Source of the DNA: a virus
Taxonomy: Duplodnaviria > Caudoviricetes
IMG/VR virus record: IMGVR_UViG_3300037182_000030
Span: 1-59,678 of that record
Strand: one strand, 5' to 3'
Length of the DNA: 59,678 bases
The position numbers and the translations under genes are program-made. Positions 142 through 59,678 of the stretch are shown one piece after another (within the stretch, counting starts at the first letter, position 1; the number at the start of each line of letters is the position of its first letter). The notes below the pieces were generated by a model that searched no databases, was not told the DNA's origin, and was given only the letters and a program-made list of their open reading frames with translations.

Positions 142-178
142 TTGGGATTTAGTGGAAGCCTTCACTAAAAAGTCCTAA
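26..178 (+). CDS. Cassette 2 cargo: 50-aa two-TM membrane peptide (copy A)
   Basis: MRTTIMIAAILLVGAHGVPESKVNIGTGIAIFGLFWSLAWDLVEAFTKKS; two hydrophobic stretches; stop is the TAA of TAA|C. Confidence 0.75.
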   Translation: MRTTIMIAAILLVGAHGVPESKVNIGTGIAIFGLFWSLAWDLVEAFTKKS

Positions 179-264
179 CGTGGAATCCAGCGATGAGGCG
201 ACGATGGACAACCGAAAAACAAATGCAGCGACTACGCCTCATTCGCTGCGATGACTGGTTAGGA
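173..264 (-). repeat. attC: attC site (attI-proximal, #1)
   Basis: TCCTAAC...ATCCAGCGATGAGGCG / CGCCTCATtCGCTGcGAT...GTTAGGA hairpin with two extrahelical bases. Confidence 0.9.
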
Positions 265-458: not shown

Positions 459-1412
459 ATGAGATTTGAGGAGAAATTCAAGCGGGTTTGCCGGGCTGAC
501 CGCAAGCCGCTGACCACGGAACGGTCTTATTGGGCCGTGGCCAGAAGGTTTATTCTCTGGTCAGGCGCGCAGTCGGAAGGGGAATTGCGGCAGGATGCCA
601 CGGAGAATTTCCGCGAGTTTATTTCTGATGAGGCCAACCGGGATATTGCCGCCGCCACACAGGATCTGGCGTTCAATGCGCTGCGCTACATGTTCGAGAT
701 TGTCCTGGACATTCGCCTGGGCGACTTGAAAGGCATTGCCCGCGCGAAACGGCAGGAGGTGATGATTGATGTGCCGCCAATGGATGTGGCCAAGGCCATT
801 GTCAATTCCGTGCCGGGAATGCACGGGCTGATTTTACGCACGCAACTTGGATCGGCGTTGCGGATAAGCGATGCGTTGCGGATACGGGTGAAGGAACTGG
901 ATTTCCGCCGGAGAATGATTGCAATCCAGCGCAGCAAGGGCGGAAAATCGCGGCTGGTGCCCATGCCGGAAAGCCTGGTTCCAGAACTTGAGGCTTTGGT
1001 GCGGGAACGGACGCGGGTGCATGAGAACGATTTGCGTCAGGGCCTGGGCTGGGTGCATTTGCCGGGACAACTGGCGAAGAAATATCCCGGCCAGGACCAT
1101 TCGCTTGAGTGGCAGTTCATTTTCTTTTCAGACCGGATTTCCACCGATCCGCAGACGGGCAACATTGGGCGGTATCACCTGATGCCGGCGGTGGTGCAGC
1201 GGGCGATGGCGGATGCGCGCCGGAAATTGAAAATCACGAAGCATTACACGCCTCACTGTTTGCGTCATGCCACCGCTCAATTTTGGGAGCGGGAAGGAAT
1301 TGAGCATAGCAAGATTCAAGTTTTGCTGGGACACAGTGATTTGAAAACAACCCAACGGTATCTTCTATCTGGTCGTTCAGGTATTCCAAAAGGAATTCCA
1401 ACCCCGATATGA
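459..1412 (+). CDS. intI: Integron integrase (IntI-type tyrosine recombinase)
   Basis: Catalytic R (LRISD), K (SKGGKSR), HxxR (HCLRH), H (LGH), Y (TTQRY), plus the IntI-specific insertion HENDLRQGLGWVHLPGQLAKKYP...WQFIF...STDPQTG..GRYH. Confidence 0.95.
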   Translation: MRFEEKFKRVCRADRKPLTTERSYWAVARRFILWSGAQSEGELRQDATENFREFISDEANRDIAAATQDLAFNALRYMFEIVLDIRLGDLKGIARAKRQEVMIDVPPMDVAKAIVNSVPGMHGLILRTQLGSALRISDALRIRVKELDFRRRMIAIQRSKGGKSRLVPMPESLVPELEALVRERTRVHENDLRQGLGWVHLPGQLAKKYPGQDHSLEWQFIFFSDRISTDPQTGNIGRYHLMPAVVQRAMADARRKLKITKHYTPHCLRHATAQFWEREGIEHSKIQVLLGHSDLKTTQRYLLSGRSGIPKGIPTPI

Positions 1413-48773: not shown

Positions 48774-48774
48774 A

Positions 48775-49059
48775 ATGACACCGCTCGAAACGCTTTTGGC
48801 GCAATGGTGGCCAAACGTCAGGCCGTCCGGGGATAAAAATATATTCCTCGTTCGGTCGCGTTCATCGCCGAATGTCTGGCGGCGCGTGGATGCCCAAGGG
48901 CGTTTCGGGATTGGTATTTGCAACTGTCCTGACAACCAGAAAAACAAAAACCCGTCATGCCATCATATTCAATCCGTTCGCGGGTGGATTATGCAGGTGA
49001 CAATGTATTCGGAAATAAAAAAAGACTTGGAAGGCAGCCGAAAGCCTGTTACAAATTGA
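48775..49059 (+). CDS. SWIM zinc-finger protein
   Basis: CNCPD......C.HI. Confidence 0.65.
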   Translation: MTPLETLLAQWWPNVRPSGDKNIFLVRSRSSPNVWRRVDAQGRFGIGICNCPDNQKNKNPSCHHIQSVRGWIMQVTMYSEIKKDLEGSRKPVTN

Positions 49060-49078
49060 CCCGACGAAAGAAAAGAAC

Positions 49079-49618: not shown

Positions 49619-49639
49619 CGGTCAAACCAAGAAAAGAAT

Positions 49640-50062: not shown

Positions 50063-50631
50063 TTCAGCGCAAAACACTATTCAGCGATGACAGAAAATTC
50101 CGCTACACGCTTTGGCGGGAATTTTATCCGATTTTTGCGACCGATGGCGCCGCCGGGAAAGTTCCAATCGAAGGGAACAAGTCGCATCATTTTGTGATGT
50201 TCATCGGCCTGAATCCGTCCACCGCAACAGAAACAGAAGACGACCCCACAAACCGACGTTGCATCCGGTTTGCGAAGGAGTGGGGATTTGGAGCTTACTG
50301 CATGACGAACCTTTTTGCATTTTGCACGGCCTATCCGAAAGTTTTGACCGAAGCTGGACATCCAATCGGCGAGCCTGGGAATTACATCACAGTCGGAAAC
50401 GCAGGTTTTGATAACCGGAATGACTATTGGCTTTATCTGACTGGCCGCGAAGCTGGTTTAATCGTCGCCGCATGGGGATCGTTTCCGCAAGCTGTAGAGC
50501 GAGCAAAAACAATCCGCAAAATGTTCGCCGGGAAACTTTACTGCCTCGGACAAACCGCCAATGGAAGCCCAAAGCATCCTCTTTATTTGCAAGCCGACAC
50601 GAAGCCAATCCTTTACGATGAACCAAAATGA
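50059..50631 (+). CDS. DUF1643-family protein
   Basis: RY.LWR; FIGLNPSTA....DDPT.RRC..FA..WG; NLFA; VAAWG; G.P.HPLY. Confidence 0.88.
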   Translation: MIQRKTLFSDDRKFRYTLWREFYPIFATDGAAGKVPIEGNKSHHFVMFIGLNPSTATETEDDPTNRRCIRFAKEWGFGAYCMTNLFAFCTAYPKVLTEAGHPIGEPGNYITVGNAGFDNRNDYWLYLTGREAGLIVAAWGSFPQAVERAKTIRKMFAGKLYCLGQTANGSPKHPLYLQADTKPILYDEPK

Positions 50632-51146
50632 TTGCCCGCCGAAAAACACCAAGACCGCTCGCCTTATGGACTCAACTACCAGGGGCGCGTTTGACGCCTT
50701 CGCCAAAGGGACGCCAGCGAGAAAAGAATGGCGCAAGTGGATTCCGTTCCTTCACCCGGTCGAAATACTTATCGAAATTGCCAAGGCAAAAGCCGATCAA
50801 AAAAGTGTCCACTAAAAAACAAAAGTCAGACCGGCTTTACATGGCCATCGCAAAAGAGCATCGCCGGCAGCCGGGCAACGATTATTGCCGGGTTAAATTC
50901 GCGCTGACAAGACGAGTAATTCCGGCAACTCACACGCACCACATTCGAGGCCGACTGAAAACTCTGAAATTCGACACGCGATTCTTTTGCCACACGACAT
51001 TTGAAAATAATCTTTGGCCTCACAGGAATCCAAAAAAGGCGCAAGCGTTGGGATTGATCGCTGGGCCGGGAGAGTGGAACGTCGCGCCAAATGACGCGGA
51101 AACTGAACGGATCAAAAGCTGGATGATTGAAAAAGGAATCTGGTAA
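50628..51146 (+). CDS. HNH-like protein; its stop forms the distal boundary of the array
   Basis: C......AT..HH.RGR; ends TGG TAA|C. Confidence 0.55.
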   Translation: MIARRKTPRPLALWTQLPGARLTPSPKGRQREKNGASGFRSFTRSKYLSKLPRQKPIKKVSTKKQKSDRLYMAIAKEHRRQPGNDYCRVKFALTRRVIPATHTHHIRGRLKTLKFDTRFFCHTTFENNLWPHRNPKKAQALGLIAGPGEWNVAPNDAETERIKSWMIEKGIW

Positions 51147-51238
51147 CGCATAGCTCTGCCATGAACACCGCGCCAACGATGCCCGATTGCAATGAAACCG
51201 CCAACGCGGTGGTCATTGGCAGCAGCGCATGGTTAGAC
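51141..51238 (-). repeat. attC: attC #16 (distal)
   Basis: TAAC-GCTCTGCCATGA / TCATtGGCAGcAGC-GTTAGAC. Confidence 0.85.
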
Positions 51239-51988
51239 GCCATTGTGTGTGATGACAATGTGAAAGTCCTCTCCGGCCTGCCTGATGCGTGTATAGACCT
51301 GACGGTAACAAGCCCACCGTATGACGACATCTTCGCGTATGGTGGTCACTCGTGGGACTTCAACGCGCTCGCGGCGCAACTCGCCCGCGTGACAAAGCCG
51401 GGCGGCGTGGTGGTGTGGATAATCGGCGACCAGACAAAGAACGGCGCGGAAACGCTGACGAGCTTCCGGCAAGCTCTCGCCTTCGACGCGCTCGGACTGC
51501 GGATGCACGACACGATGATCTACGAGAAATCCGGCGTGGCATACCCTGACAGCAACCGATACCTGCAAGTCGTGGAATGGATGTTCGTCATGTCGAAGGG
51601 AAAACCGAAAACCGCGAACCTGCTGCGTGACCGGCCAAATAAATACGTCGGCACGATGGGCGGCAACGGACGCGGCGGACTGTGCAAGCGAAATGAGAAC
51701 GGCATCCGCTTCAACATCTGGCGATACCCGACTGGCCGCGACAACTCGACAAAAGACCGCGTGGCATACGAGCATCCGTGCGTGATGCCGGAAGCTCTCG
51801 CCCGCGACCATATCCTGACGTGGAGCAAGGAAGGTGAAACCGTGCTGGACTGCTTCGCTGGCAGCGGCACGACTCTGAAAATGGCACGGGAAACCAACCG
51901 CCGATACCTCGGCATCGAAGTGAATCAAACCTATGTGGACATCATCAACAAACGCCTCGAAAACCATGCGCTCCCGCTTGGCGTCTAA
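51161..51988 (+). CDS. Cassette cargo: DNA N4/N6 methyltransferase
   Basis: VTSPPY; HPCVMP; VLDCFAGSGTT; start codon inside attC. Confidence 0.92.
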   Translation: MNTAPTMPDCNETANAVVIGSSAWLDAIVCDDNVKVLSGLPDACIDLTVTSPPYDDIFAYGGHSWDFNALAAQLARVTKPGGVVVWIIGDQTKNGAETLTSFRQALAFDALGLRMHDTMIYEKSGVAYPDSNRYLQVVEWMFVMSKGKPKTANLLRDRPNKYVGTMGGNGRGGLCKRNENGIRFNIWRYPTGRDNSTKDRVAYEHPCVMPEALARDHILTWSKEGETVLDCFAGSGTTLKMARETNRRYLGIEVNQTYVDIINKRLENHALPLGV

Positions 51989-52072
51989 CATTGAGTCCAG
52001 CCATGCCGGGGCTGTGACTCCCAAATGAAACTGAAGCGGCCAACCGGCATTGGCTGCGACGATTTGTTGGGC
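51983..52072 (-). repeat. attC: attC #15
   Basis: GTCTAAC-GTCCAGCCATGCCGG / CCGGCATtGGCTGcGAC-GTTGGGC. Confidence 0.88.
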
Positions 52073-52103
52073 AGGCCGGTCTGAAAATAAGTGAAAATAA
52101 ATC

Positions 52104-52132
52104 TTGCTATCCGAACCGCTTGGGTTTAATCT
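52104..52132 (+). promoter_or_regulatory. Cassette-internal promoter
   Basis: TTGCTA-17-TAATCT, ATG 7 nt downstream. Confidence 0.55.
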
Positions 52133-52139
52133 CTCTTCA

Positions 52140-52388
52140 ATGAAAACATACTATGCCACCGCAAAAGACTGCAAAGAATTTGATACCGCAATCGCGAGCC
52201 TCCGGCCACTCGCAATCTCAATAGCGGAGACGCGCCGGTTGCTCGTAATGGCTGGGGTCGGAACATTCGGCACGGAAAAAGAACGCCAGATGCTTGCGAA
52301 ATTTGAGGATAAAATCACCAAACTCCAAACGAAGCTCTATAAACGCGCTCAAAAGGCTTGGTATCATTCCGCAGGAACCGTCCAATGA
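52140..52388 (+). CDS. Cassette cargo: hypothetical protein
   Basis: MKTYYATAK... Confidence 0.6.
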   Translation: MKTYYATAKDCKEFDTAIASLRPLAISIAETRRLLVMAGVGTFGTEKERQMLAKFEDKITKLQTKLYKRAQKAWYHSAGTVQ

Positions 52389-52528
52389 ATAAGGCCGCTC
52401 AATCTCTCGGACGCCTCGGCGGTCTAGCGAAGTCGAAAGCCAAGACTGCCGCTGCGCGTCGTAACGCAAAACTCGGTGGACGCCCGAAGAAAACCAAACG
52501 CTCGGCCCGGCGGCCTAACGCCGCGTGA
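52385..52528 (+). CDS. Cassette cargo: small basic GGRP peptide
   Basis: MNKAAQSLGRLGGLAKSKAKTAAARRNAKLGGRPKK...; not in the ORF track. Confidence 0.7.
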   Translation: MNKAAQSLGRLGGLAKSKAKTAAARRNAKLGGRPKKTKRSARRPNAA

Positions 52529-52620
52529 TGAGCCACGCGAGAATTTTATGAAACCAAAAACACTGAAAAAGACCAATCGCAAACCCGTAACCCGCGTTGG
52601 CTCCGGCACGCTTGTTAGCC
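52513..52620 (-). repeat. attC: attC #14
   Basis: GCCTAAC-GAGCCACGCG / CGCGTtGGCTC-GTTAGCC. Confidence 0.8.
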
Positions 52621-52856
52621 GACGGGTGAGGCTTGAATTTATGGTAGTGCCAGAACTACTCGCTACCAAAGCGTATGTCCCGACCCCGGTGCGCTGCAAA
52701 ATAATAGACCCGGAAGCAATCTTTCTGACGGGCATCTTGGGTGACAGTGGCCGCAAACTGGTAAAAGCTGGAATTGAGTTCTACTTTACGAAGCGTCTTG
52801 CTAACAAGTTAATCTCAAAGCGAATTGCCGTGAAGTCGGCTAACGAAAAAAGCTGA
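52548..52856 (+). CDS. Cassette cargo: hypothetical protein
   Basis: Start inside attC #14, stop inside attC #13. Confidence 0.6.
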   Translation: MKPKTLKKTNRKPVTRVGSGTLVSRRVRLEFMVVPELLATKAYVPTPVRCKIIDPEAIFLTGILGDSGRKLVKAGIEFYFTKRLANKLISKRIAVKSANEKS

Positions 52857-52963
52857 GCCACGGCGACGGGAAACAATCTCCGACTGCAAATGAAACAACC
52901 AAATAACCAAATAGCGCCGAAACTGACGGGGCAGTCGCCGTTGGCTCCGGCGCGTTGTTATGG
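52838..52963 (-). repeat. attC: attC #13
   Basis: GGCTAAC-GCTGAGCCACGGCGAC / GTCGCCGTtGGCTCcGGC-GTTATGG. Confidence 0.88.
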
Positions 52964-53499
52964 CTCAAATTATGAATAAACTGACTCAAAAAATTCGGTC
53001 TGCTTACGAGCAAATTAAGAAGCGGCCATTCGACCGCCTTCCGCTTCACGGCGTTGGGGCGGAAATTGGCGTCTATCGCGGCATCCACGCCCGTAAATTT
53101 CTCAACCGCATTGCCGTCCAAAAGCTCTACGTCGTTGATCCGTGGATAAACTACACGCAAATGTTTGATCTGCCGCAAGCGGAGCGCATCTGTCACTTTC
53201 TGCTGGACGGGTTTGAGGATAGGTGTGTTTTCTGCAAAGCCACGGCGCAGACGGCCAATCTCCCGCAACTGGACTTCGCCTACATAGACGCGTTGCACAC
53301 TGATGAGGGCGTAACTGCCGACATGGAAACAATCTGGCCGCTGATAAAGCCCGGCGGAATCATGGGCGGTCACGACTTTGACACGAACTGGCCGGGAGTG
53401 GTGCAAGGCGTCATCCGATTCGTGGCGAAAAACAACCTGACGCTTAACGTCCAGTCGCCGGATTGGTGGGTGGTCAAAAGCCATAACGACCCGAACTGA
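52960..53499 (+). CDS. Cassette cargo: class I SAM-dependent methyltransferase (Methyltransf_24-like)
   Basis: GAEIGVYRG, VDPW, DFAYIDA.H, IKPGG.M.GHDF. Confidence 0.85.
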   Translation: MAQIMNKLTQKIRSAYEQIKKRPFDRLPLHGVGAEIGVYRGIHARKFLNRIAVQKLYVVDPWINYTQMFDLPQAERICHFLLDGFEDRCVFCKATAQTANLPQLDFAYIDALHTDEGVTADMETIWPLIKPGGIMGGHDFDTNWPGVVQGVIRFVAKNNLTLNVQSPDWWVVKSHNDPN

Positions 53500-53591
53500 G
53501 ACACCGCCGATGTGCGGTGTCCGAACTCTAAAAAATCTTATGGCAAAAAAGAAAGCGTCAACGGCGGTTGTCTCCAGTGAGATGGTTCGGC
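53481..53591 (-). repeat. attC: attC #12
   Basis: CCATAAC-ACTGAGACACCGCCG / CGGCGGTtGTCTCcAGT-GTTCGGC. Confidence 0.88.
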
Positions 53592-53908
53592 AGCCGGATA
53601 ACCTGTATCTCCAATGGCACGGGGATGCTGAACCGACCGACTCACCAATCAGCGTGATGGATGTCACATGGTCACGAGATAAAATCTGGCCGTATGACAT
53701 CGAATATGCCCGCGTCCCAAACGATGCCTTCATCGCCCCACTGATGAGGTGGCTGGTGCAACGGGAAGGAAAATGCGCGGCGACAACCATGAGCATCCTT
53801 AAACGCAAGCTCGACCGCTACATCGAAACCGCCAATCACGAAGAATGGCGCAAGCTGCCGAACGTCCTGCGTGAGCCAAGCGGGACTGACGGCTCACGAT
53901 TGAAATGA
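53540..53908 (+). CDS. Cassette cargo: hypothetical protein
   Basis: P...YLQW......VTW..D.I...DIEY.R phage-type motif. Confidence 0.65.
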   Translation: MAKKKASTAVVSSEMVRQPDNLYLQWHGDAEPTDSPISVMDVTWSRDKIWPYDIEYARVPNDAFIAPLMRWLVQREGKCAATTMSILKRKLDRYIETANHEEWRKLPNVLREPSGTDGSRLK

Positions 53909-53946
53909 CAGCGACAACCCGCTTTGGCTCCACGCAGTTGTTGGGC
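53857..53946 (-). repeat. attC: attC #11
   Basis: GCCGAAC-CGTGAGCCAAGCGGG / CCCGCTTtGGCTCcACG-GTTGGGC. Confidence 0.88.
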
Positions 53947-54402
53947 AGGCCGGCTGAAAATATACAAATGAAAATACATCTGATAATCGAAATCGAGGAC
54001 GACGGAAAGACGCGCCGCGCCACCGTGCAGCGCGTGGCGAAAGTCGCGGAACTCAACGGCGACCGTGAACTGCTCATCGCGCCAGCCGCCGCGCTCGAAA
54101 TCATCAAGAAACAGAAGCGTGCAAAAATCGCGGATGTCGCGCCCGCGCCAGTGCCGCCGCTACCTGAACCGGACGCGCCGAAAATCGAGCGCAAAGGCTC
54201 CGGCCCGCAATTCGATCCCGGCTTTCTGAAAATCATCGAGGATGCGCCCGAACCGTTCACGCGCCGGAGTCTCGCGGTGAGTAGCGGCTTGAAAGTCGAG
54301 GACGTGACACAACGGCTAATCCGGCTGCACAAGAAAGGCTGGATACACCAGCCCGCCCGCGAAATGTGGGTGAGAACCAAAACCTTTGGAGAAAAGCCGT
54401 GA
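53905..54402 (+). CDS. Cassette cargo: protein with C-terminal winged helix
   Basis: PFT...LA...GL....V...L.RL.KKGWI. Confidence 0.6.
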   Translation: MTATTRFGSTQLLGRPAENIQMKIHLIIEIEDDGKTRRATVQRVAKVAELNGDRELLIAPAAALEIIKKQKRAKIADVAPAPVPPLPEPDAPKIERKGSGPQFDPGFLKIIEDAPEPFTRRSLAVSSGLKVEDVTQRLIRLHKKGWIHQPAREMWVRTKTFGEKP

Positions 54403-54680
54403 GCAACTTCGACAAGCAATATGCGCGGCAAGGTGGCCGGTGCTTCTGGTGCCAACATCTTGTGCCAGTCGCGGCCATGACCCGCGACCATATCGAGCCA
54501 AAAACCCACGGCGGCGCAAACGACTGGTCAAACATCGTGCTGGCCTGCGCCAAGTGCAACGAAGCCAAGTCCGCGCTCCATGTCGGCAGCATCCGGTTCG
54601 ACAAGAGGCTGCGGAAAGTAATGCGCGGAGAAATCTATCGCTTCATCCGCCGGGAAACATTCAAACACAACGCGACATGA
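54399..54680 (+). CDS. Cassette cargo: HNH endonuclease
   Basis: Q.GRCFWC......T.DHI.P...GG.N...NIVLAC..CN..K. Confidence 0.85.
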   Translation: MSNFDKQYARQGGRCFWCQHLVPVAAMTRDHIEPKTHGGANDWSNIVLACAKCNEAKSALHVGSIRFDKRLRKVMRGEIYRFIRRETFKHNAT

Positions 54681-54687
54681 ACCGGCT

Positions 54688-54816
54688 GCCCAACGACTGA
54701 CTTCAGACACCGCCGACAATATGCAAACCAACTCTGAACCAACTGCGATGCCCGCCGAAGCCAACAACTCCCGAACCGCCAGCGATGAGGCGGTTGTCTG
54801 CAAGGAATTGTTGGGC
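54688..54816 (-). repeat. attC: attC #10
   Basis: GCCCAAC-CTTCAGACACCGCC / GGCGGTtGTCTGcAAG-GTTGGGC. Confidence 0.88.
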
Positions 54817-55077
54817 TGCGGTGGTAAGACTGCCATCAAACCATACAAGGAACTAAAACCGTGTCCTTTCTGTTTCGGTGCGGCCTGCCTCCATCGTCGG
54901 CGGTCGGTGAACAATGCCGTAGGCCACGCGAAAACCGGGTGGGTGTATCACGTCCACTGCACCGACTGCGGCGCTCATTTTCACGAGGACGGAAACGAAG
55001 GAAGTGCTGTCTCGCGCTGGAACTCACGAGAGCAGCCCAACGGTCGGGATCAGAGGCCCGGCGACCAAAACGCATGA
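54721..55077 (+). CDS. Cassette cargo: Lar-family restriction alleviation-like protein
   Basis: ELKPCPFC.G....V.C..CGA......A...WN.R. Confidence 0.75.
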   Translation: MQTNSEPTAMPAEANNSRTASDEAVVCKELLGCGGKTAIKPYKELKPCPFCFGAACLHRRRSVNNAVGHAKTGWVYHVHCTDCGAHFHEDGNEGSAVSRWNSREQPNGRDQRPGDQNA

Positions 55078-55125
55078 ATACGAATGAGACGCAATCGCCG
55101 GGTTCTCTGCATCCCGTGGTTCGGC
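55035..55125 (-). repeat. attC: attC #9
   Basis: GCCCAAC-GATCAGAGGCCCGGCGA / TCGCCGGGTtCTCTGcATC-GTTCGGC. Confidence 0.88.
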
Positions 55126-55418
55126 ATCCCTCGTTCGATGCTGATGGATACCCAACCGAGGAAACCGAACTGGCAATCAAGGCGTGGGACTTTCGAGACG
55201 CGCCCGGCTGGCTGGCATACATCCGCGAGGCGTGGAATCACCACTATGGTAGAATGTGGGAAGACAACGGAACGATCAAGATGGCGACTGGCGGATGGAG
55301 TGGCAACGAATCAATCACGCACTCCATGCGAGAGAACTACATCCTATGGTCGCTGCTTTGGGAATCGTCGCATCGGGGCGGCCTCGAAGTGCTCAGGATG
55401 CCGAACATTTCAAGCTGA
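55074..55418 (+). CDS. Cassette cargo: conserved phage hypothetical
   Basis: D.DGYPTEE....I..W...TGGWSGNE.I......W...W.SS.RGG. Confidence 0.7.
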   Translation: MNTNETQSPGSLHPVVRHPSFDADGYPTEETELAIKAWDFRDAPGWLAYIREAWNHHYGRMWEDNGTIKMATGGWSGNESITHSMRENYILWSLLWESSHRGGLEVLRMPNISS

Positions 55419-55509
55419 GCCACAGGCGCGAACTGAATAAACCGTGAATCTGCAAACCGACATCCAAACGACAGCAGCCCCGCCTGTTGGCTCCGGCGCT
55501 GTGTTAGGC
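55400..55509 (-). repeat. attC: attC #8
   Basis: GCCGAAC-GCTGAGCCACAGGCG / CGCCTGTtGGCTCcGGC-GTTAGGC. Confidence 0.88.
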
Positions 55510-55998
55510 GGCAAGTGTCCGGTGTGTGGCGGGCCGAACCCCAAGCGGCATGGGTCTTTTGAGAAAACTTGTTCTTTAAGTTGCGGCCATAAATTGAGAT
55601 TCCAAACCGACCCCAAAGTAAAAAAGCTTCTGCTAAAATACAGATATGTCTGCCTCGGATGGCACGGAAAAGGAAAAGGCGCGAGGGATAATCCCGACCA
55701 CGCAAACGCCAAAGCCATCCGAGTTCGTGATCCGCTTGGTGTGGTGCATGAAATCAAAAACATAACGTCTTGGTGCCGAAAAAATGAACAACTATTCAAG
55801 CCATACGATAACCCGGAGGCAAAGCTTCCGCTCTGGCGACGCGCACAAGTAGGTCTGACAAGTATTGCTTGCGGAGACAAGTGCTCGTGGCATGGCTGGA
55901 CTGCTGTTTGCGTTTTCGACATAGAAGCTGACCCACTGGCAAGGCGCGTGGCTTTGCCGCCTAACGTGGCGCTAAAACACGGCGGCGATCACCAATGA
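55444..55998 (+). CDS. Cassette cargo: Zn-ribbon plus putative DNA-binding domain protein
   Basis: CPVCG...TCS..C; DP.G....I.N...WCR.N...GW. Confidence 0.6.
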   Translation: MNLQTDIQTTAAPPVGSGAVLGGKCPVCGGPNPKRHGSFEKTCSLSCGHKLRFQTDPKVKKLLLKYRYVCLGWHGKGKGARDNPDHANAKAIRVRDPLGVVHEIKNITSWCRKNEQLFKPYDNPEAKLPLWRRAQVGLTSIACGDKCSWHGWTAVCVFDIEADPLARRVALPPNVALKHGGDHQ

Positions 55999-56066
55999 CT
56001 TTCGACTGCAAATCGAATCTGGAAACTGCGGGGACTCCCGCCGTTGTTTTCAGCAACTGGTTAGGG
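55959..56066 (-). repeat. attC: attC #7
   Basis: GCCTAAC-GCTAAAACACGGCGG / CCGCCGTtGTTTTcAGC-GTTAGGG. Confidence 0.88.
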
Positions 56067-56077
56067 AGCGTCAAACT

Positions 56078-56353
56078 ATGAGCTGGTCACTAAACCTGAT
56101 AGGAAAAAAAGAGGATGTCCAAGCCTGCGTGAAAGCGCAAATCGTGGACACAAAATACGCGCCTGAAATCGGCATGGCAATCATTGCTGAAATCTCGGCG
56201 ATACCAGGGCCAACTGGTGTGCCTGATGGACACTGGAGCGCAACGCACGTCATTGTGCGAGGCAGCGGCCACACTGGCGGCGGCGTGAACGAACTGAAAA
56301 TCGAACCGTTCACGGAATGCAAAACACCTGTGGTAGCACCGCCTGTAACCTGA
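56078..56353 (+). CDS. Cassette cargo: hypothetical protein
   Basis: MSWSLNLIGKK...; coupled to attC-encoded peptide 55995-56081. Confidence 0.65.
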   Translation: MSWSLNLIGKKEDVQACVKAQIVDTKYAPEIGMAIIAEISAIPGPTGVPDGHWSATHVIVRGSGHTGGGVNELKIEPFTECKTPVVAPPVT

Positions 56354-56387
56354 ACCGACGGGGAGCTTGAGCGTCGAAACTCAAGCT

Positions 56388-56497
56388 CCCTAACGATGAA
56401 AGCTGAGCCACCGCTGACTATGGACACACAACAACCAACGACTCCTGCGGCAACCCGCGATGACCAACAGCGGTTGGCTCCGGCGGGTTTGTTAGGC
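56388..56497 (-). repeat. attC: attC #6
   Basis: CCCTAAC-GCTGAGCCACCGCTG / CAGCGGTtGGCTCcGGC-GTTAGGC. Confidence 0.88.
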
Positions 56498-56713
56498 CAC
56501 GTCCGAAAACATGGACTCCAAATAGAATGGTGCCGAGACATCCCGGAAGGCGCGCGAAAACTGGCGGTGAACAGAACTCGTGAAATGCTGATCCACTACG
56601 GGCGCAACATCACCAGCCTGAACATCGAAACCCTAGTGCTGTCTTGCTACCTGCAAGGCATCAATGACTGCTTTGAATACCATGAACATAAATCTAAAAC
56701 TGTGGGCAATTAA
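56420..56713 (+). CDS. Cassette cargo: hypothetical protein
   Basis: Start inside attC #6; L..SCYLQG..D. Confidence 0.6.
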   Translation: MDTQQPTTPAATRDDQQRLAPAGLLGHVRKHGLQIEWCRDIPEGARKLAVNRTREMLIHYGRNITSLNIETLVLSCYLQGINDCFEYHEHKSKTVGN

Positions 56714-56813
56714 AATGATCTTCGTGTGGCGCTGGCGTTGCGGATACTGGGACTGGGACGCATTCCGCGCCGCTTGGAACGTCAAGTGGCCTAACGGCCC
56801 GGATCAGCGATGA
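56682..56813 (+). CDS. Cassette cargo: 43-aa Trp-rich peptide
   Basis: MNINLKLWAIKMIFVWRWRCGYWDWDAFRAAWNVKWPNGPDQR; TGA overlaps ATG 56810. Confidence 0.45.
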   Translation: MNINLKLWAIKMIFVWRWRCGYWDWDAFRAAWNVKWPNGPDQR

Positions 56814-56882
56814 GCGCCACCCAAGACATTCAAATTGAAACCGACGTGCGTGGCGCTCATTCGCTGCATCCGGTGGTTGGGG
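56789..56882 (-). repeat. attC: attC #5
   Basis: GCCTAAC-GATCAGCGATGAGCGCCAC / GTGGCGCTCATtCGCTGcATC-GTTGGGG. Confidence 0.9.
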
Positions 56883-57679
56883 CGCATTTCGAGGACTCAC
56901 AAACTAGAATCATAAACGCCGACTGCCTGAACACGCTCGAAGAAATGGAAGATGGAAGCTGCCATGCTGTAATCACTGACCCGCCGTTCTCGTCTGGTGC
57001 GCGAACCGACGCCGGAAAGAATATGCGCGGCGGGATGCAACGCGGCGCGAAGTGGCAAGAGAACTGGTTCAGTCACGACAACCTCGCCACTCACGGCTTC
57101 AACTATCTGATGCGCCTGGTGGCTGTGGAACTCTACCGTGTGACAACGCCAACCGCGACCGCCCACTTCTTCATAGACTGGCGGATGTATCCGAACCTCT
57201 ACGCCGTGGTGGAGTCGGCGGGATGGATCGCAAAGAATCTCGTGGTGTGGGACAAGAAACACTTCGGGATGGGCGGCAACTACCGCAACCAGCACGAGCT
57301 AATCCTCTACTGCGAAAAGACGGCTGGCGCTGACTTCCGGCAAAAGAACCTCGGCAACGTGATAAGCAGCAAGCGGGCTGAAATGCTGCACCATCCGACA
57401 GAGAAGCCGACCGACATCCTCGGTCTGATGATTCGGGCGGTGACTGACGAGGGGCAAACCGTGCTCGACCCATTCATGGGCAGCGGGTCAACGCTTCGCG
57501 CCGCCAAAGACAACAATCGGAAATCAATCGGCATCGAGATATGCCGAGAATACTGCGAAGTGGCCGCAGCACGGATGGCTCAAACCGTCCTGCCACTGGA
57601 CGCGCCCGCAATGCGCCCCAACGCAGAGTTCAGGAACGCCGCATCTGGCGTTCCCGGACTCGATGGAGGCGTCCAATAG
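56810..57679 (+). CDS. Cassette cargo: DNA N4/N6 methyltransferase
   Basis: ITDPPF; HPTEKP; VLDPFMGSGST. Confidence 0.92.
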   Translation: MSATQDIQIETDVRGAHSLHPVVGAHFEDSQTRIINADCLNTLEEMEDGSCHAVITDPPFSSGARTDAGKNMRGGMQRGAKWQENWFSHDNLATHGFNYLMRLVAVELYRVTTPTATAHFFIDWRMYPNLYAVVESAGWIAKNLVVWDKKHFGMGGNYRNQHELILYCEKTAGADFRQKNLGNVISSKRAEMLHHPTEKPTDILGLMIRAVTDEGQTVLDPFMGSGSTLRAAKDNNRKSIGIEICREYCEVAAARMAQTVLPLDAPAMRPNAEFRNAASGVPGLDGGVQ

Positions 57680-57705
57680 GCGTTTCCTGCAACGATTTGT
57701 TGGGC
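57616..57705 (-). repeat. attC: attC #4
   Basis: CCCCAAC-GTTCAGGAACGCC / GGCGTTtCCTGcAAC-GTTGGGC. Confidence 0.88.
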
Positions 57706-57736
57706 AGGCCGGTCTGAAAATAAATGAAAATAGTTC

Positions 57737-57765
57737 TTGCAACCAAAGCGGCTTGGGTTTATTGT
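57737..57765 (+). promoter_or_regulatory. Cassette-internal promoter
   Basis: TTGCAA-17-TATTGT, ATG 6 nt downstream. Confidence 0.55.
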
Positions 57766-57771
57766 GTGGGT

Positions 57772-57978
57772 ATGAAAACGAACGAAATCAAATCGGTGTC
57801 AGCGGCGCACGGCAAAATGAACATCGTTCACGCGGCGGGCGCGACGGTGGAAGGCTGCACGGCGGCATACTACGCGCTCTGCGGCGACACGCGGGCAATC
57901 CGGCGGTCAATGCGCGGATTTCTTGAAGTGTATGTCCCGGTGAACTGCCCGTCATGCCTTGCCAAGCTCGCAAAATGA
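57772..57978 (+). CDS. Cassette cargo: small Zn-binding protein
   Basis: VH......ALCG......VNCPSC. Confidence 0.6.
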   Translation: MKTNEIKSVSAAHGKMNIVHAAGATVEGCTAAYYALCGDTRAIRRSMRGFLEVYVPVNCPSCLAKLAK

Positions 57979-58289
57979 AAACTGAATGGAAATGGCTACT
58001 CGACTGGATAGCACAAAACGGCAGCGCCGACTGCTTGAACACGCCGCTCGCGCTCGACGCCTGCGAGCGGTTCGGATGGCGCTGCATCAGAACTGGCCTG
58101 CATACGGTGTCAACGCCTCGCGTCGGACGGGAACTGGCGAAGATGGCAAGGGCTGGCTACCTCGAAAAGAGCCGCGCCGGAATCTCCGGACTCGGCTACG
58201 GGTGGCCGAAATGGGTGTGGACATACAGCCTGACAAGTATGGCTGCCCAAATTGCAACGGAGACGGTTGCGAACTCTGCCGCTAAATGA
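57975..58289 (+). CDS. Cassette cargo: winged-helix-like protein
   Basis: GR.L..M...GYL...R.G......GWPKWV..Y.L. Confidence 0.6.
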   Translation: MKTEWKWLLDWIAQNGSADCLNTPLALDACERFGWRCIRTGLHTVSTPRVGRELAKMARAGYLEKSRAGISGLGYGWPKWVWTYSLTSMAAQIATETVANSAAK

Positions 58290-58465
58290 ACATCACAAAA
58301 TATCTGTCTGAAATCGGGCGCAAAGGCGGTAAAGCCAAGAGCCGCGCCAAACTCGCCGCTGCGCGTGCAAATGGGAAACTTGGTGGACGCCCGAAGAAAC
58401 CTAAACGCGCCGCCCGTCTGCCCAACACTAAAGTGAGCAGCGTGATCGTGAGCAACCGTGAATAA
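58286..58465 (+). CDS. Cassette cargo: small basic GGRP peptide
   Basis: MNITKYLSEIGRKGGKAKSRAKLAAARANGKLGGRPKK...; paralog of 52385-52528. Confidence 0.7.
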   Translation: MNITKYLSEIGRKGGKAKSRAKLAAARANGKLGGRPKKPKRAARLPNTKVSSVIVSNRE

Positions 58466-58541
58466 CTCGACAACCATTCTAACCACTGAAACCGTGCCAA
58501 CTGGCGGGAGCAATCACGTCTGCTCCACTGCCTTGTTAGAG
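58420..58541 (-). repeat. attC: attC #3
   Basis: GCCCAAC-AGTGAGCAGCGTGAT / ATCACGtCTGCTCcACT-GTTAGAG. Confidence 0.88.
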
Positions 58542-59276
58542 CACAGGATCGTGGCGCTCTCTGGTGGAAAAGACTCAACCGCTCTCGCTCTCCGGCTCGC
58601 GGAAGTAGAACCGCAAGCGTATCAATTCTGCATCACGCCGACAGGCCGCGAACTGCCGGAAATGCTCGACCACTGGAAAAAGCTGGAATGTCTGCTTGGC
58701 GCTCCGCTGGTGCGAATCCCAGGCCCGTCGCTGCTCGACCTCATCATCAAATACAAGACGCTGCCAAACTTCCGGCTGCGCTACTGCACGCGGGAAGTGA
58801 AAATCGAGCCATTCATCAAATACGCGGAGAGCCTCGCGCCTGCAATCTGCTACGTCGGCATCCGTGCCGATGAAGCCGATGACCGCGAAGGAACGAACTG
58901 GAATGGCATCGAAGGCGTGAAACAAGACCTGCCGCTGGTGCGCTGGGGATGGGGCGTGAACCGCGTAAAAGAATATCTGCGCGAACGCGGCGTGACGATA
59001 CCGGAACGGACGGACTGCGACTGCTGCTATCACCAGCAACTCGGCGAATGGTGGCGGCTGTGGCGCGACCACATAGACCGCTGGATGGAAATCGAAGCTC
59101 TCGAAATCTGGACTGGTCACACGCTCCGCAGTGAACAGCGCGACTCGTGGCCGGCGAGCCTGAAAGAACTCCGCGCAAAATTTGAAGCTGGCTACATCCC
59201 GAAAGGGGCAGCGCAAATGAAAATCCCGCTCGACGTAGCCGAGCGGAAAACAATGTGCGCTTGGTGCGCTCGATAA
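58458..59276 (+). CDS. Cassette cargo: PAPS-reductase-family (PP-loop) protein
   Basis: VALSGGKDSTAL; TG.E.PE; R.CT...KI.P; VGIRADE..R; PL..WG; R..C..C. Confidence 0.85.
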   Translation: MNNSTTILTTETVPTGGSNHVCSTALLEHRIVALSGGKDSTALALRLAEVEPQAYQFCITPTGRELPEMLDHWKKLECLLGAPLVRIPGPSLLDLIIKYKTLPNFRLRYCTREVKIEPFIKYAESLAPAICYVGIRADEADDREGTNWNGIEGVKQDLPLVRWGWGVNRVKEYLRERGVTIPERTDCDCCYHQQLGEWWRLWRDHIDRWMEIEALEIWTGHTLRSEQRDSWPASLKELRAKFEAGYIPKGAAQMKIPLDVAERKTMCAWCAR

Positions 59277-59277
59277 T

Positions 59278-59547
59278 ATGCCATACGAAACCCTACACCC
59301 CGGAAAGAAATGTCCCGAATGCGGCGGCAGGGGAAAAATCTACCGTCACGTTCCGAAATACGCGATAGCCATGCCCGGCGTGGCTGACGACTGGACATAC
59401 GAAGATCAAGAATGCTGGCGCTGTCATGGTGACGGCATCGCGCGTTCGCTGGACGCACGGCTGTGCTCTAACGTAGAAGTCAGCGATGGCGCGTCGCTGA
59501 CCAACCGAAAAACAAACGCAGCGTCCTCGCGCCATTCGCTGCACTGA
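59278..59547 (+). CDS. Cassette cargo: DnaJ-type zinc-finger peptide
   Basis: CPECGGRG...CWRCHGDG; reads through attC #2. Confidence 0.6.
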   Translation: MPYETLHPGKKCPECGGRGKIYRHVPKYAIAMPGVADDWTYEDQECWRCHGDGIARSLDARLCSNVEVSDGASLTNRKTNAASSRHSLH

Positions 59548-59557
59548 CGGGTTAGGA
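59466..59557 (-). repeat. attC: attC #2
   Basis: CTCTAAC-AGTCAGCGATGGCGCG / CGCGCCATtCGCTGcACT-GTTAGGA. Confidence 0.9.
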
Positions 59558-59678
59558 CTTTTATGAGAACAACAATAATGATAGCTGCAATCCTTTTGGT
59601 CGGCGCTCATGGAGTGCCGGAAAGCAAAGTAAATATCGGAACTGGAATAGCCAGATTCGGACTGTTGTGGTCACTGGC

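What the first reader, a model, noticed from the sequence alone, without database searches (positions are those of the whole stretch)
51161..59276. Cassette cargo looks like a counter-defence / DNA-modification toolkit
Seen: two N4/N6 DNA methyltransferases, a Lar-like zinc protein, a PAPS-reductase-family enzyme, a SAM methyltransferase, an HNH and many small unknowns. Known: phage MTases and Lar alleviate restriction, and bacterial integrons carry anti-phage cassettes. Inference: this is the mirror image, and the unknown cassettes are candidates for new anti-defence proteins.
Basis: inference. Interest (0 to 1): 0.72.

Follow-up and report, generated by a model that had tools for sequence, protein, structure and literature searches.

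The report
Phage integron carrying anti-restriction gene cassettes
A phage genome carries its own integron, and its swappable gene cassettes include DNA methylases, a Lar-like protein, a phosphorothioation-type enzyme and a relative of an anti-CRISPR protein, so part of the cargo probably helps the phage evade bacterial defences, while two thirds of it is still of unknown function.

Summary
All six named domains are present at the stated places. The genes are true integron cassettes. There are 16 attC-like hairpins, on the + strand only, with strong covariation. The array runs off the window end and resumes at its start. It ends at a conserved attI-like segment, followed by an IntI-type integrase at 459-1412. 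The backbone is a phage, with a terminase and a portal.

Contigs from four other metagenomes carry single cassettes at 90-100% identity in other contexts, with similarity breaking at the AAC box.

Cassette ORFs lie on the intI strand, downstream of their own attC. This is inverted relative to canonical integrons.

Cargo: 6 of 21 ORFs have Pfam families. A seventh, the unknown ORF 55444-55998, is a profile-level homologue of the anti-CRISPR AcrVA3 (E 7e-12). DNA methylases recur in relatives' arrays: 5 of 46 ORFs in 6 loci. Fourteen of 21 ORFs stay unassigned, and no activity was tested.

The "counter-defence toolkit" reading is therefore partly supported. Novelty: a new variant of a known kind. 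Qi et al. 2023 noted methylases in phage attC cassettes.

The parts
51141..51238 (+). attC-like site 1, at the distal end of the array
   Evidence: cmsearch 66.2 bits, E 8e-17; structural scan
51161..51988 (+). Cassette 1: orphan DNA methyltransferase MT1, with an SPPY motif
   Evidence: PF01555 E 6.4e-37; phrog_67 E 1e-52; motif read in the translation
51983..52072 (+). attC-like site 2
   Evidence: 75.1 bits
52140..52388 (+). Cassette 2, ORF a: 82 aa, unknown function
   Evidence: No Pfam or PHROG family
52385..52528 (+). Cassette 2, ORF b: 47 aa, very basic (pI 12), paralogue of 58286-58465
   Evidence: Repeat family D3; pI
52513..52618 (+). attC-like site 3
   Evidence: 49.6 bits
52548..52856 (+). 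Cassette 3: 102 aa, unknown function
   Evidence: No family
52838..52963 (+). attC-like site 4
   Evidence: 75 bits
52960..53499 (+). Cassette 4: class I SAM methyltransferase (Methyltransf_24), substrate unknown
   Evidence: PF13578 E 1.9e-13; weak phrog_2675 hit
53481..53591 (+). attC-like site 5
   Evidence: 62.6 bits
53510..53908 (+). Cassette 5: 132 aa, unknown function
   Evidence: No family; only 6 close homologues
53857..53946 (+). attC-like site 6
   Evidence: 62.5 bits
53905..54402 (+). Cassette 6, ORF a: 165 aa, unknown function
   Evidence: No family
54399..54680 (+). Cassette 6, ORF b: small HNH nuclease
   Evidence: PF01844 E 4.6e-12; phrog_2118
54688..54816 (+). attC-like site 7
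   Evidence: 59.1 bits
54721..55077 (+). Cassette 7: Lar-like zinc-ribbon protein
   Evidence: PF14354 46.1 bits, over the cut-off of 28.6; TIGR03655 38.0 bits, under the cut-off of 39.6; phrog_599
55035..55125 (+). attC-like site 8
   Evidence: 66.3 bits
55074..55418 (+). Cassette 8: unknown protein, likely starting at GTG 55116 inside the attC 3' arm
   Evidence: 217 homologues, all unnamed; conservation begins at residue 19; AF2 pLDDT 90.5; no PDB fold match
55400..55509 (+). attC-like site 9
   Evidence: 54.3 bits
55444..55998 (+). Cassette 9: zinc ribbon followed by an AcrVA3-like (I-HmuI-like) DNA-binding/cleaving domain
   Evidence: Family profile against PDB 9kja_A: E 7.3e-12; Foldseek E 4.4e-3, probability 1.0; single sequence E 0.014
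55959..56066 (+). attC-like site 10
   Evidence: 74.6 bits
56078..56353 (+). Cassette 10: 91 aa, unknown function
   Evidence: No family
56388..56497 (+). attC-like site 11
   Evidence: 61.4 bits
56396..56713 (+). Cassette 11: 105 aa, unknown function. A doubtful 49-aa ORF at 56664-56813 overlaps its end.
   Evidence: No family
56789..56882 (+). attC-like site 12
   Evidence: 56.8 bits
56810..57679 (+). Cassette 12: orphan DNA methyltransferase MT2, with a DPPF motif
   Evidence: PF01555 E 1.3e-33; phrog_67 E 2e-53; motif read in the translation
57616..57705 (+). attC-like site 13
   Evidence: 70.2 bits
57724..58465 (+). Cassette 13: three ORFs. 57724-57978 is unknown; 57954-58289 hits phrog_24457, of unknown function; 58286-58465 is a basic 59-aa protein.
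58420..58541 (+). attC-like site 14. The bulged base here is C, not T.
   Evidence: 53.8 bits
58458..59276 (+). Cassette 14, ORF a: PAPS-reductase-fold PP-loop enzyme, SspD/DndC-like
   Evidence: PF01507 E 2.2e-07; phrog_424 E 1.1e-35; PADLOC SspD E 3e-33; SGGKDS read in the translation
59278..59547 (+). Cassette 14, ORF b: 89-aa protein with CxxC pairs, unknown function
   Evidence: Only hits below cut-off
59466..59557 (+). attC-like site 15
   Evidence: 67.8 bits
59563..59678 (+). Cassette 15: 50-aa hydrophobic peptide, cut by the window end. Further copies lie at 26-178 and 270-422.
   Evidence: Window end 59538-59678 matches 1-141 at 139 of 141 positions
173..264 (+). attC-like site 16, between the two peptide cassettes next to intI
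   Evidence: 69 bits
415..458 (+). Last AAC box plus the attI-like segment. Relatives are conserved to the right of AAC and differ to its left.
   Evidence: Comparison of 8 loci
459..1412 (+). IntI-type integron integrase
   Evidence: TIGR02249 229.5-229.9 bits against a cut-off of 265; best PDB hit is VchIntIA 2A3V, E 1.9e-36, ungapped through the IntI-specific insert; R135 K160 H266 R269 H292 Y301 invariant in 21 clade members

Best explanation
The region is the cassette array of an integron that belongs to a phage, not to a bacterium.

Each cassette is an attC hairpin followed by one to three ORFs on the same strand. Cassettes are bounded at the 5'-xxxxAAC box. The phage's IntI (459-1412) can excise and insert them at a conserved attI just upstream of its own gene.

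Because every ORF points towards intI, the cargo must be transcribed from the phage's own upstream transcription or from cassette-internal signals. It cannot be driven by a Pc promoter at attI.

The cargo is an exchangeable accessory pool. Its recognisable members all act on DNA or on host defence:
- two orphan beta-class DNA methylases, probably one m4C type (SPPY) and one m6A type (DPPF), that would pre-methylate phage DNA against restriction;
- a Lar-like zinc-ribbon protein, a family named for alleviation of type I restriction;
- an SspD/DndC-like PP-loop enzyme, from the family that makes phosphorothioate DNA;
- an AcrVA3-like DNA-cleaving domain protein;
- a small HNH nuclease.

What is shown: the domains, the hairpins, the integrase, and cassette modularity in other samples. 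What is inferred: that these proteins are made early enough and actually counter host defences, and that the 14 unassigned ORFs do similar work.
For: Domains:
- Pfam, PHROG, NCBIfam and PADLOC hits.

AcrVA3 link:
- A profile of 51 family members hits PDB 9kja_A at E 7.3e-12.
- Foldseek's top hit is 9kja (E 4.4e-3, probability 1.0, target TM 0.69). I-HmuI is second.
- Of the 9 residues the AcrVA3 paper calls conserved, 6 are identical and 1 is conservative in the window protein. I mapped these by hand from the alignment and PMC13001698, which I read whole.

Integron:
- 16 sites, on the + strand only.
- 94.9% of cells paired. The inner helix is 100% paired, with compensatory changes in 7 of 8 pairs. 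0 of 500 shuffles reach the observed values.
- IntI evidence.
- attI: in all 8 loci a box ending in AAC lies 20-40 nt before the intI start, and the loci are unalike to its left. To its right, 6 of 8 share the word TCTTATT. In the window and L016 that word is altered; the window still shares the stretch just before the intI start with L012-L014, while L016 shares little.

Mobility (contigs of 4 of 4 laid runs from 4 other studies):
- Single cassettes are held at 90-100% identity. Cassette 9, for example, shows 5 differences in 480 nt in X3 and 0 in 375 nt in X5.
- Similarity stops or starts at the AAC boxes (52520, 52840, 53484, 53854, 54694-7, 55965-6, 58430) and the contigs run on with unlike sequence.
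- A contig joint at 52872->55486 in X3 and X5 puts cassette 9 directly after cassette 3.

Recurrence of methylases:
- L012 has 2 N6_N4 methylases among 6 ORFs scanned, and L017 has 1 MT-A70 among 4. L007 has 0 of 10, L015 0 of 3, and L016 0 of 2.
- With the window's 2 of 21, that is 5 of 46.
- Within the window, 2 of the 3 N6_N4 genes lie in the 8.5-kb array and 1 lies in the other 51 kb.

Literature:
- Phage PAPS reductases cluster in variable regions, and one is reported to help evade Dnd (passage in PMC13551039).
- Orphan phage methylases protect against restriction (passage in PMC9892861).

Phage identity:
- TerL and portal in the window.
- The relative G001 is a 52-kb record with terminal repeats, 100% complete by CheckV, with 11 sites. 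All lie just upstream of its intI.
Against: - 14 of 21 ORFs have no assignment after Pfam, PHROGs, PADLOC and NCBIfam (each on part of the set) and, for four of them, PDB searches.
- In relatives' arrays, 21 of 25 scanned ORFs have no Pfam family. The largest array (L007) has no methylase among its 10 scanned ORFs.
- The Lar hit is just under NCBIfam's cut-off (38.0 against 39.6).
- The PAPS-reductase protein stands without any visible Ssp or Dnd partner. PADLOC's SspD model has no curated cut-off.
- In the AcrVA3-like protein, 2 of the 4 residues shown by mutagenesis to matter differ (N76->R, K93->H).
- The protein has an extra N-terminal zinc ribbon, and 3 of 51 family members carry NUMOD3. 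The domain may simply be a homing-endonuclease DNA-binding module.
- No protein is strongly acidic like Ocr or ArdA.
- No library of anti-defence families was available, so 'enrichment' rests on small counts without a proper background.
- The array lies at the end of the gene order, not demonstrably in an early region. The promoter scan was at chance level: 7 found against 6.6 expected.
Confidence: 0.55

Rival explanations
1. The array is a true phage integron, but the cargo is a general accessory pool with no special link to host defence. It would hold selfish nucleases and homing-type DNA binders (HNH, the I-HmuI-like domain), addiction-like small basic proteins, membrane peptides, and methylases that serve the phage's own replication, packaging or gene control.
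For: - Two thirds of the ORFs are unassigned.
- An HNH nuclease and an I-HmuI-like domain are present, with NUMOD3 in 3 of 51 relatives.
- The cassette next to intI is a tandemly repeated 50-aa hydrophobic peptide.
- L007's 10 scanned ORFs include no methylase.
- The phage also has a methylase outside the array.
Against: - Every assignable function except the HNH has a published tie to defence evasion.
- Methylases recur in three independent arrays with unrelated sequences of 23-38% identity.
Confidence: 0.3
2. The hairpins are not recombination sites. They are regulatory or terminator-like repeats between phage genes, and the integrase serves only for phage integration. On this reading, 'cassettes' is a misnomer.
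For: - The spacer between boxes is 8-10 nt, against the usual 5-6 nt. Only one bulged base is seen.
- The integrase scores under the NCBIfam cut-off.
- The hairpins sit in the 5' ends of ORFs, where they could affect translation.
Against: - Sites occur only next to intI, in the window and in the complete relative G001.
- The integrase has the IntI-specific insert.
- Relatives share sequence to the right of the last AAC box next to intI but differ to its left.
- Single units occur in other contexts, with breaks at that box.
Confidence: 0.05
3. The contig is bacterial DNA, a chromosomal integron beside a prophage, wrongly called viral. The cargo would then be ordinary bacterial cassettes.
For: - CheckV estimates only 69% completeness, and IMG/VR found no exact end repeat.
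- One homologue of cassette 8 is labelled as coming from an Opitutaceae MAG.
Against: - All long ORFs run on one strand.
- The window ends overlap at 139 of 141 positions, which closes the circle between the array and intI.
- TerL and portal lie in the same molecule.
- A scan of 185,579 species genomes found no integrase closer than 35% identity.
- G001 is a complete viral record with the same layout.
- ESM Atlas neighbours of two cassette proteins are viral clusters. This is a lead only.
Confidence: 0.05

Closest known systems
Integrons and attC clusters (CALINs) reported in phage genomes by Qi et al. 2023 (PMC9892861; results section part 1 and passages read)
   Same: They also report integron components in phages. 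They counted five predicted methyltransferases in phage-borne cassettes, and they suggested that such cassettes help phages overcome restriction.
   Different: - Their 3 complete integrons, from 10,705 genomes, were captured pieces of host chromosomal integrons or class 1 integrons in P1.
- Their virulent phages had only small integrase-less clusters.
- Here the integrase belongs to its own clade: about 69 clusters at 45-94% identity, then a drop to 38% or less against named bacterial IntI.
- No GenBank phage record matched this integrase above 35% identity (9 of 50,697 records matched at E <= 1e-10).
- The array has at least 16 sites, and the cassette ORFs are inverted.
[quoted passage not shown]
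   Same: The platform logic is the same: IntI, attI and attC cassettes used as a stock of small conflict genes.
   Different: - The owner is the phage.
- The recognisable cargo is counter-defence rather than defence. None of the 9 unknowns scanned hits a PADLOC model, and the one further protein scanned, the PAPS reductase, hits only the modification enzyme SspD.
- ORFs point towards intI instead of away from it.
Canonical attC sites (Nivina et al. 2016, PMC5027507; passages read)
   Same: - A 5'-RYYYAAC box and a GTTRRRY-3' box.
- An imperfect hairpin 90-129 nt long, within the known 57-141 nt range.
- A bulged T about 22-23 nt from the 3' end of the strand that also encodes intI.
- Crossover at AAC.
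   Different: - The unpaired spacer is 8-10 nt instead of 5-6 nt.
- No separate extrahelical G is evident.
- The genes lie on the recombinogenic 'bottom' strand, downstream of their attC.
AcrVA3, PDB 9kja (PMC13001698, whole text read)
   Same: - The C-terminal domain of the 55444-55998 protein is homologous at profile level and in predicted fold.
- It keeps N44, R50, L55, D60, W92 and W95 (AcrVA3 numbering).
   Different: - The window protein is 184 aa with an added N-terminal zinc ribbon and helices; AcrVA3 is 111 aa.
- N76 and K93 are replaced.
- Anti-CRISPR activity is untested.
Anti-defence islands and acr-aca operons of phages (PMC13551039, one passage read)
   Same: Both are variable regions that gather methylase-like or Mom-like DNA modifiers, PAPS reductases and Acr genes.
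   Different: Those loci are defined by a regulator (Aca) and by position. This one is defined by site-specific recombination sites and a dedicated recombinase.

Membership tests
Integron | IntI: a tyrosine recombinase with the catalytic R-K-H-R-H-Y residues and the IntI-specific extra domain | tested here: met
   - The best PDB match is VchIntIA 2A3V (E 1.9e-36), aligned without a gap through residues 185-240.
- R135, K160, H266, R269, H292 and Y301 are invariant in 21 clade members.
- The TIGR02249 score is 229.9, under the curated cut-off of 265. It is far above the scores for XerC (76) and XerD (61).
Integron | attC sites: imperfect hairpins with RYYYAAC and GTTRRRY boxes and extrahelical base(s), on one strand only | tested here: met
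   - 16 sites on the + strand and none on the - strand.
- Covariation is supported: 0 of 500 shuffles reach the observed values.
- Deviations: the spacer is 8-10 nt, and there is a single bulged T, which is C in one site.
Integron | attI next to intI, where the array ends | tested here: met
   - In all 8 loci a box ending in AAC lies 20-40 nt before the intI start, and the loci are unalike to its left.
- To its right, 6 of 8 share the word TCTTATT.
- In the window and L016 that word is altered. The window still shares the stretch just before the intI start with L012-L014; L016 shares little.
Integron | Cassettes are independently mobile units | tested here: met
   Contigs of 4 of 4 laid runs hold single cassettes with breaks at the AAC boxes, and in another order. 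This is contig-level evidence, not an assay.
Integron | Cassette genes face away from intI and are read from Pc at attI | tested here: not met
   - All cassette ORFs with family hits lie on the intI strand, upstream of intI.
- Among the 22 loci with a distant (under 40% identity) integrase scored, 12 show the canonical picture (1 or no ORF on the intI strand, 464-1079 aa on the other).
- 5 are dominated by the intI strand (L008, L009, L011, L031, L047) and 5 are mixed. Three of those five are viral contigs.
Beta-class N4/N6 DNA methyltransferase (PF01555) | Domain over the cut-off, with a (S/D)PP(Y/F) motif and an FxGxG motif | tested here: met
   - Scores are 128.1 and 117.3 bits against a cut-off of 26.7.
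- SPPY with FAGSG, and DPPF with FMGSG, are read in the translations.
- The reading of SPPY as m4C-type is recalled knowledge.
Beta-class N4/N6 DNA methyltransferase (PF01555) | Methylates DNA at a defined motif and protects from a cognate nuclease | not testable with these tools
   Needs a methylome and restriction assays.
Lar (PF14354 / TIGR03655) | Sequence family membership | tested here: inconclusive
   - Pfam: 46.1 bits, over the cut-off of 28.6.
- NCBIfam: 38.0 bits, under the cut-off of 39.6.
- The CxxC...CxxC pattern is present.
Lar (PF14354 / TIGR03655) | Alleviates type I restriction | not testable with these tools
   The function of the founding member is recalled. It was not tested here.
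SspD / DndC (phosphorothioation PP-loop enzymes) | PAPS-reductase fold with the SGGKDS PP-loop | tested here: met
   - PF01507: 31.5 bits against a cut-off of 22.5.
- PADLOC SspD: E 3e-33 over 209 of 277 profile positions.
- The motif is read in the translation.
SspD / DndC (phosphorothioation PP-loop enzymes) | Works with SspABC or DndABDE partners | not tested
   No partner was seen among the proteins scanned. The whole window was not searched for them.
AcrVA3 | Homologous domain and fold | tested here: met
   - Profile E 7.3e-12.
- Foldseek probability 1.0, E 4.4e-3.
AcrVA3 | Residues needed for DNA cleavage (R50, D60, N76, K93) | tested here: inconclusive
   R and D are kept. N76->R and K93->H differ. 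This is my own mapping and PMC13001698.
AcrVA3 | Inhibits Cas12a | not testable with these tools
   Needs an assay.

The most novel reading that the evidence does not exclude
A lineage of phages from peat, permafrost and lake metagenomes owns a dedicated integron. Its IntI clade was not found in bacterial reference genomes. Its cassettes are built 'backwards', with the attC first and the gene on the recombinogenic strand, so that they are read by the phage's one-directional transcription.

The phages would use this integron to trade counter-defence genes (methylases, Lar, phosphorothioation enzymes, Acr-like nucleases and many unknown inhibitors) within a shared environmental cassette pool. 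This would be the true mirror image of the bacterial integron defence biobanks. On this reading, the 14 unassigned ORFs here and the dozens in relatives are a concentrated source of new anti-defence proteins.
Probability: 0.4. Interest if true: 0.9.

Novelty: new variant of a known kind. Interest (0 to 1): 0.78.

Why it matters
Integrons are known as bacterial devices. Recent work shows that they store anti-phage defence genes.

A phage-owned integron would show that both sides of the conflict use the same gene-shuffling machine. This one has its own integrase clade, a conserved attI, at least 16 cassettes, and cargo that is recognisably counter-defence.

It would also give a simple sequence rule for harvesting candidate anti-defence genes from metagenomes: any ORF that follows an attC of this type.

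The inverted cassette build raises a mechanistic question. In this system, cassette expression cannot depend on Pc or on distance from attI.

Tried and rejected
- Megablast of the region against 50,697 GenBank phage records: no match.
- tblastn of cassette 8 and 9 proteins against the same collection: no match.
- A single-sequence locus search in viral contigs found nothing. The alignment-based search worked.
- PHROGs gave nothing for 9 of the 10 unknowns, nor for the three unknown ORFs in corrected frames (one unknown-function family only). PADLOC gave nothing for 9 unknowns. NCBIfam gave nothing for 4 unknowns and for the Methyltransf_24 protein.
- Cassette 8: the model is confident, but the best PDB match is E 0.018 with TM <= 0.42. 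Only two uncharacterised phage proteins match in BFVD. The profile search against PDB found nothing meaningful.
- Cassette 5 has too few homologues (6) for a useful model.
- phmmer against PDB for cassette 5, 6a and 10 proteins and for the PAPS reductase: nothing.
- I first read the conserved stretch after the attC of cassettes 2, 6 and 13 as a promoter. I dropped this. In cassettes 6 and 13 it is the in-frame start of the ORF, and the sigma-70 scan is at chance level.
- Acidic DNA-mimic idea: no cassette protein has a pI under 5.4.
- The paralogy of cassettes 2 and 13 alone could not fix the crossover point, because their upstream neighbours are both methylases. The attI comparison and the contig breaks settled it.
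- JSS1_004 (PMC12345140) turned out to be a kinase, not a PAPS reductase. The myxophage preprint was irrelevant.
- TerL and phrog_2 searches in G001 found nothing. L012 and L017 are not held there and were not searched.
- HMMs of the cassette 8 and 9 families found no further copies in the fetched loci.
Parts of the array without contig cover, such as 57126-57410, say nothing.
- The search of earlier findings returned nothing.
- Supplementary tables of Qi et al. 2023 (cassette annotations) and of PMC13551039 could not be seen. They may list more cargo of the same kind.

Full report
**Observation.**
- N6_N4_Mtase at 51161-51988 (E 6.4e-37) and at 56810-57679 (E 1.3e-33).
- Methyltransf_24 at 52960-53499 (E 1.9e-13).
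- Lar_restr_allev at 54721-55077 (E 6e-12).
- HNH in the frame ending at 54680 (E 4.6e-12).
- PAPS_reduct at 58458-59276 (E 2.2e-07).

PHROGs agrees: phrog_67, phrog_599, phrog_424 and phrog_2118. After I corrected two frames, my gene list for the array holds 21 ORFs. Six have a Pfam family over its cut-off and 15 have none.

**The genes are cassettes of a real integron.**
- Between the ORFs lie imperfect hairpins of 90-129 nt. Each opens with a box ending in AAC and closes with a GTT-initial box: GTTAGGC or GTTGGGC in 6 of the 16 sites, variants in the rest.
- A structural scan of my own finds 15 sites on the + strand, none on the - strand, and 0 or 1 in each of 20 shuffles. A relaxed threshold adds the site at 57616.
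- In an alignment of the 16 sites, 94.9% of cells form pairs. The inner 8-bp helix is 100% paired, with compensatory changes in 7 of 8 pairs. No shuffle of 500 reaches the observed values, and slid controls fall to 26-48% paired.
- A covariance model built on them finds the same 16 sites (E 2e-19 to 7e-12) and one weak stray hit.

**The integrase.**
- The ORF at 459-1412 scores 229.5-229.9 bits on the integron-integrase model TIGR02249. The cut-off is 265. XerC and XerD models give 76 and 61 bits.
- Its best solved relative is VchIntIA (2A3V, E 1.9e-36), aligned without a gap through the insert that is specific to integron integrases.
- The six catalytic residues are invariant in 21 clade members.

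**The array is contiguous with intI.** The window's last 141 bases match its first 141 at 139 positions. So the array at 51141-59678 continues into 1-430 and ends 37 nt before intI. The molecule is either circular or broke in three tandem copies of a small cassette.

**The attI.** Upstream of the intI start, 8 loci of this clade all have a box ending in AAC 20-40 nt before the start. They are unalike to the left of that box. To its right, 6 of 8 share the word TCTTATT. The window and L016 have it altered, although the window shares the following stretch with L012-L014. This is what an attI junction should look like.

**Polarity.** By the passages read in Nivina et al. 2016, the recombined bottom strand starts with 5'-RYYYAAC and is cut in AAC. 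It carries its extrahelical bases on the 3' arm, with a conserved T at position 23-24.

Here the single bulged base (T in 15 sites, C in one) lies on the 3' arm of the + strand, about 22-23 nt from the end. The + strand also encodes intI, as in canonical integrons.

The differences from canonical sites are:
- an 8-10 nt unpaired spacer, against the usual 5-6 nt;
- no separate extrahelical G;
- the genes lie on this same strand, downstream of their attC and pointing towards intI.

As a control I scored the ORFs upstream of intI in 22 loci with a distant (under 40% identity) integrase:
- 12 show the canonical picture, with at most one ORF on the intI strand.
- 5 are dominated by the intI strand. 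Three of these are viral contigs (L008, L009, L011).
- 5 are mixed.

In the phage clade, L012, L013 and L015 have their ORFs on the intI strand, as the window does. L007, L016 and L017 were ambiguous by this crude measure. The scan and the model hit the distant loci on the intI strand in most cases.

**Mobility.**
- Two runs hold the whole array and may be its source. Eighteen further runs hold 9-17% of its sampled words.
- I laid the contigs of four of them, one each labelled permafrost, peat, freshwater and lake water. All four hold single cassettes at 90-100% identity. Examples: cassette 9 with 5 differences in 480 nt (X3) and 0 in 375 nt (X5), cassette 6 with 62 differences in 777 nt (X3), and cassette 11 with 0 in 268 nt (X5).
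- Where a contig runs on, likeness stops or starts at the AAC boxes. It ends at 54694 (X3), 54696-7 (X7), 55965-6 (X3, X7) and 52520 (X9). It starts at 52840 (X7), 53484 (X3), 53854 (X7) and 58430 (X3).
- Two of the loose ends read like the spacer and inner box of a different attC.
- A joint at 52872->55486 in X3 and X5 puts cassette 9 right after cassette 3.
- These are contigs, so many ends are simply assembly breaks at repeats. I rely only on records that continue with unlike sequence.

**Owner.**
- The window encodes a large terminase (8447-9928) and a portal (13356-15158). Its long ORFs run on one strand.
- The integrase has about 69 clusters of relatives at 45-94% identity, all unnamed. 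Identity then drops to 38% or less against named bacterial integron integrases.
- A scan of one genome for each of 185,579 species found nothing closer than 35%. That scan works by patterns and can miss relatives.
- Among 50,697 GenBank phage records, 9 have a match, all at 35% identity or less.
- One relative (51% identity) lies in a 52-kb viral record with terminal repeats, rated complete. It has 11 sites, all directly upstream of its intI.
- The 85% relative L012 shares nothing else with the window beyond methylase-family likeness. So the module sits in different backbones.

**Cargo.**
- MT1 has SPPY and MT2 has DPPF in motif IV. From recalled knowledge of this class, this suggests one m4C and one m6A enzyme. 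Neither has a nuclease partner in its cassette.
- The Lar-like protein passes Pfam's cut-off but misses NCBIfam's by 1.6 bits.
- The PAPS-reductase protein has the SGGKDS PP-loop and matches PADLOC's SspD model at E 3e-33. A passage in PMC13551039 says that phage PAPS reductases cluster in variable regions and that one helps to evade Dnd.

**The new result is cassette 9 (55444-55998).**
- It has 162 relatives in the 50% representatives, sharing a C-terminal domain.
- A profile of 51 of them hits one PDB chain only, 9kja_A, at E 7.3e-12.
- The AlphaFold model (pLDDT 81) has 9kja, the anti-CRISPR AcrVA3, as its top Foldseek hit. The homing endonuclease I-HmuI is second.
- The AcrVA3 paper (PMC13001698, read whole) describes an I-HmuI-like, dsDNA-cleaving Acr.
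- Of its nine conserved residues, six are identical here. Of the four residues tested by mutation, two are kept.

**What stays unknown.**
- Cassette 8 has 217 unnamed relatives and a confident model (pLDDT 90.5), but no solved-structure match.
- Its conserved part begins right after the attC, and a GTG start lies inside the 3' arm.
- The other unknowns gave nothing.
- None is strongly acidic.

**Recurrence.**
- In relatives' arrays I scanned 25 ORFs with Pfam. L012 has two N6_N4 methylases next to intI. L017 has an MT-A70 methylase. L007 has one DUF3799 nuclease-like protein. L015 and L016 have nothing.
- With the window, DNA methylases are 5 of 46 array ORFs in 6 loci (L013 duplicates L012 and is not counted).
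- In the window, 2 of the 3 N6_N4 genes lie in the 8.5-kb array.
- These counts point to enrichment, but they lack a proper background.

**Verdict.**
About a third of the cargo is recognisably DNA modification or counter-defence, and one predicted 'unknown anti-defence candidate' was found. Two thirds remain open, and nothing was assayed.
- I found no description of a phage-lineage integron of this build in three literature searches.
- The nearest work is Qi et al. 2023. It reported captured integrons and small attC clusters in phages, and it already linked their methylases to evasion of restriction.

Noticed in passing
window 1-141 and 59538-59678; also 244-385: The two ends of the window overlap at 139 of 141 positions. 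A third copy of the same small cassette (a 50-aa hydrophobic peptide) follows at 135 of 142. The record is therefore probably a closed circle or terminally redundant, although it is classed as linear and 69% complete.
   Followed up: partly
window 6442-7710: A third N6_N4 DNA methyltransferase (422 aa) lies outside the array, just before the terminase gene.
   Followed up: partly
window 42675-49644: An A-rich word (about AAAGAAAAGAAYATGA) directly precedes or includes the start codon of five genes. It looks like a shared translation-start signal without a Shine-Dalgarno sequence, and may hint at the host group.
   Followed up: no
L008, L009, L011 (IMG/VR contigs), upstream of their IntI-like genes: Three other viral contigs have 31-36% identical integrases and also carry their upstream ORFs on the integrase strand. 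They may be further phage integron lineages with the same inverted build.
   Followed up: no
window 56271-56555 (attC site 11) in run X5: The summed contig depth is 1254 at this site, against 0-181 in the other bins. This attC type seems to be repeated on very many contigs of that metagenome, which points to a large cassette pool.
   Followed up: no
window 51999-52104, 53874-53981, 57626-57761: Cassettes 2, 6 and 13 share their attC plus about 35 nt that follow it. In cassettes 6 and 13 this stretch encodes an in-frame MKI... start. Cassettes 2 and 13 also both end with a small, very basic protein (pI 12), while their middle parts differ.
   Followed up: partly
window 55116 (GTG) within attC site 8; starts of most cassette ORFs: The first possible start codon lies inside the attC (12 of the 21 ORFs) or within 3 nt of its 3' end (1 more). 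The hairpin would therefore sit in the translation-start region of the mRNA and could gate expression.
   Followed up: no
window 49765-50631: A DUF1643 protein (E 1.6e-30) lies shortly upstream of the first attC site, separated from it by one unassigned ORF (50628-51146).
   Followed up: no
GenBank KX853513.1 (Virus Rctr41k), 4722-5618: An uncultured 41-kb virus record has an IntI-like gene annotated as xerD (32.5% identity, 93% coverage). It is not among the phages named in the parts of Qi et al. 2023 that I read.
   Followed up: no
window 51141-59678 against 1501-51140: The array is richer in G+C (55.9%) than the rest of the genome (51.7%).
   Followed up: no
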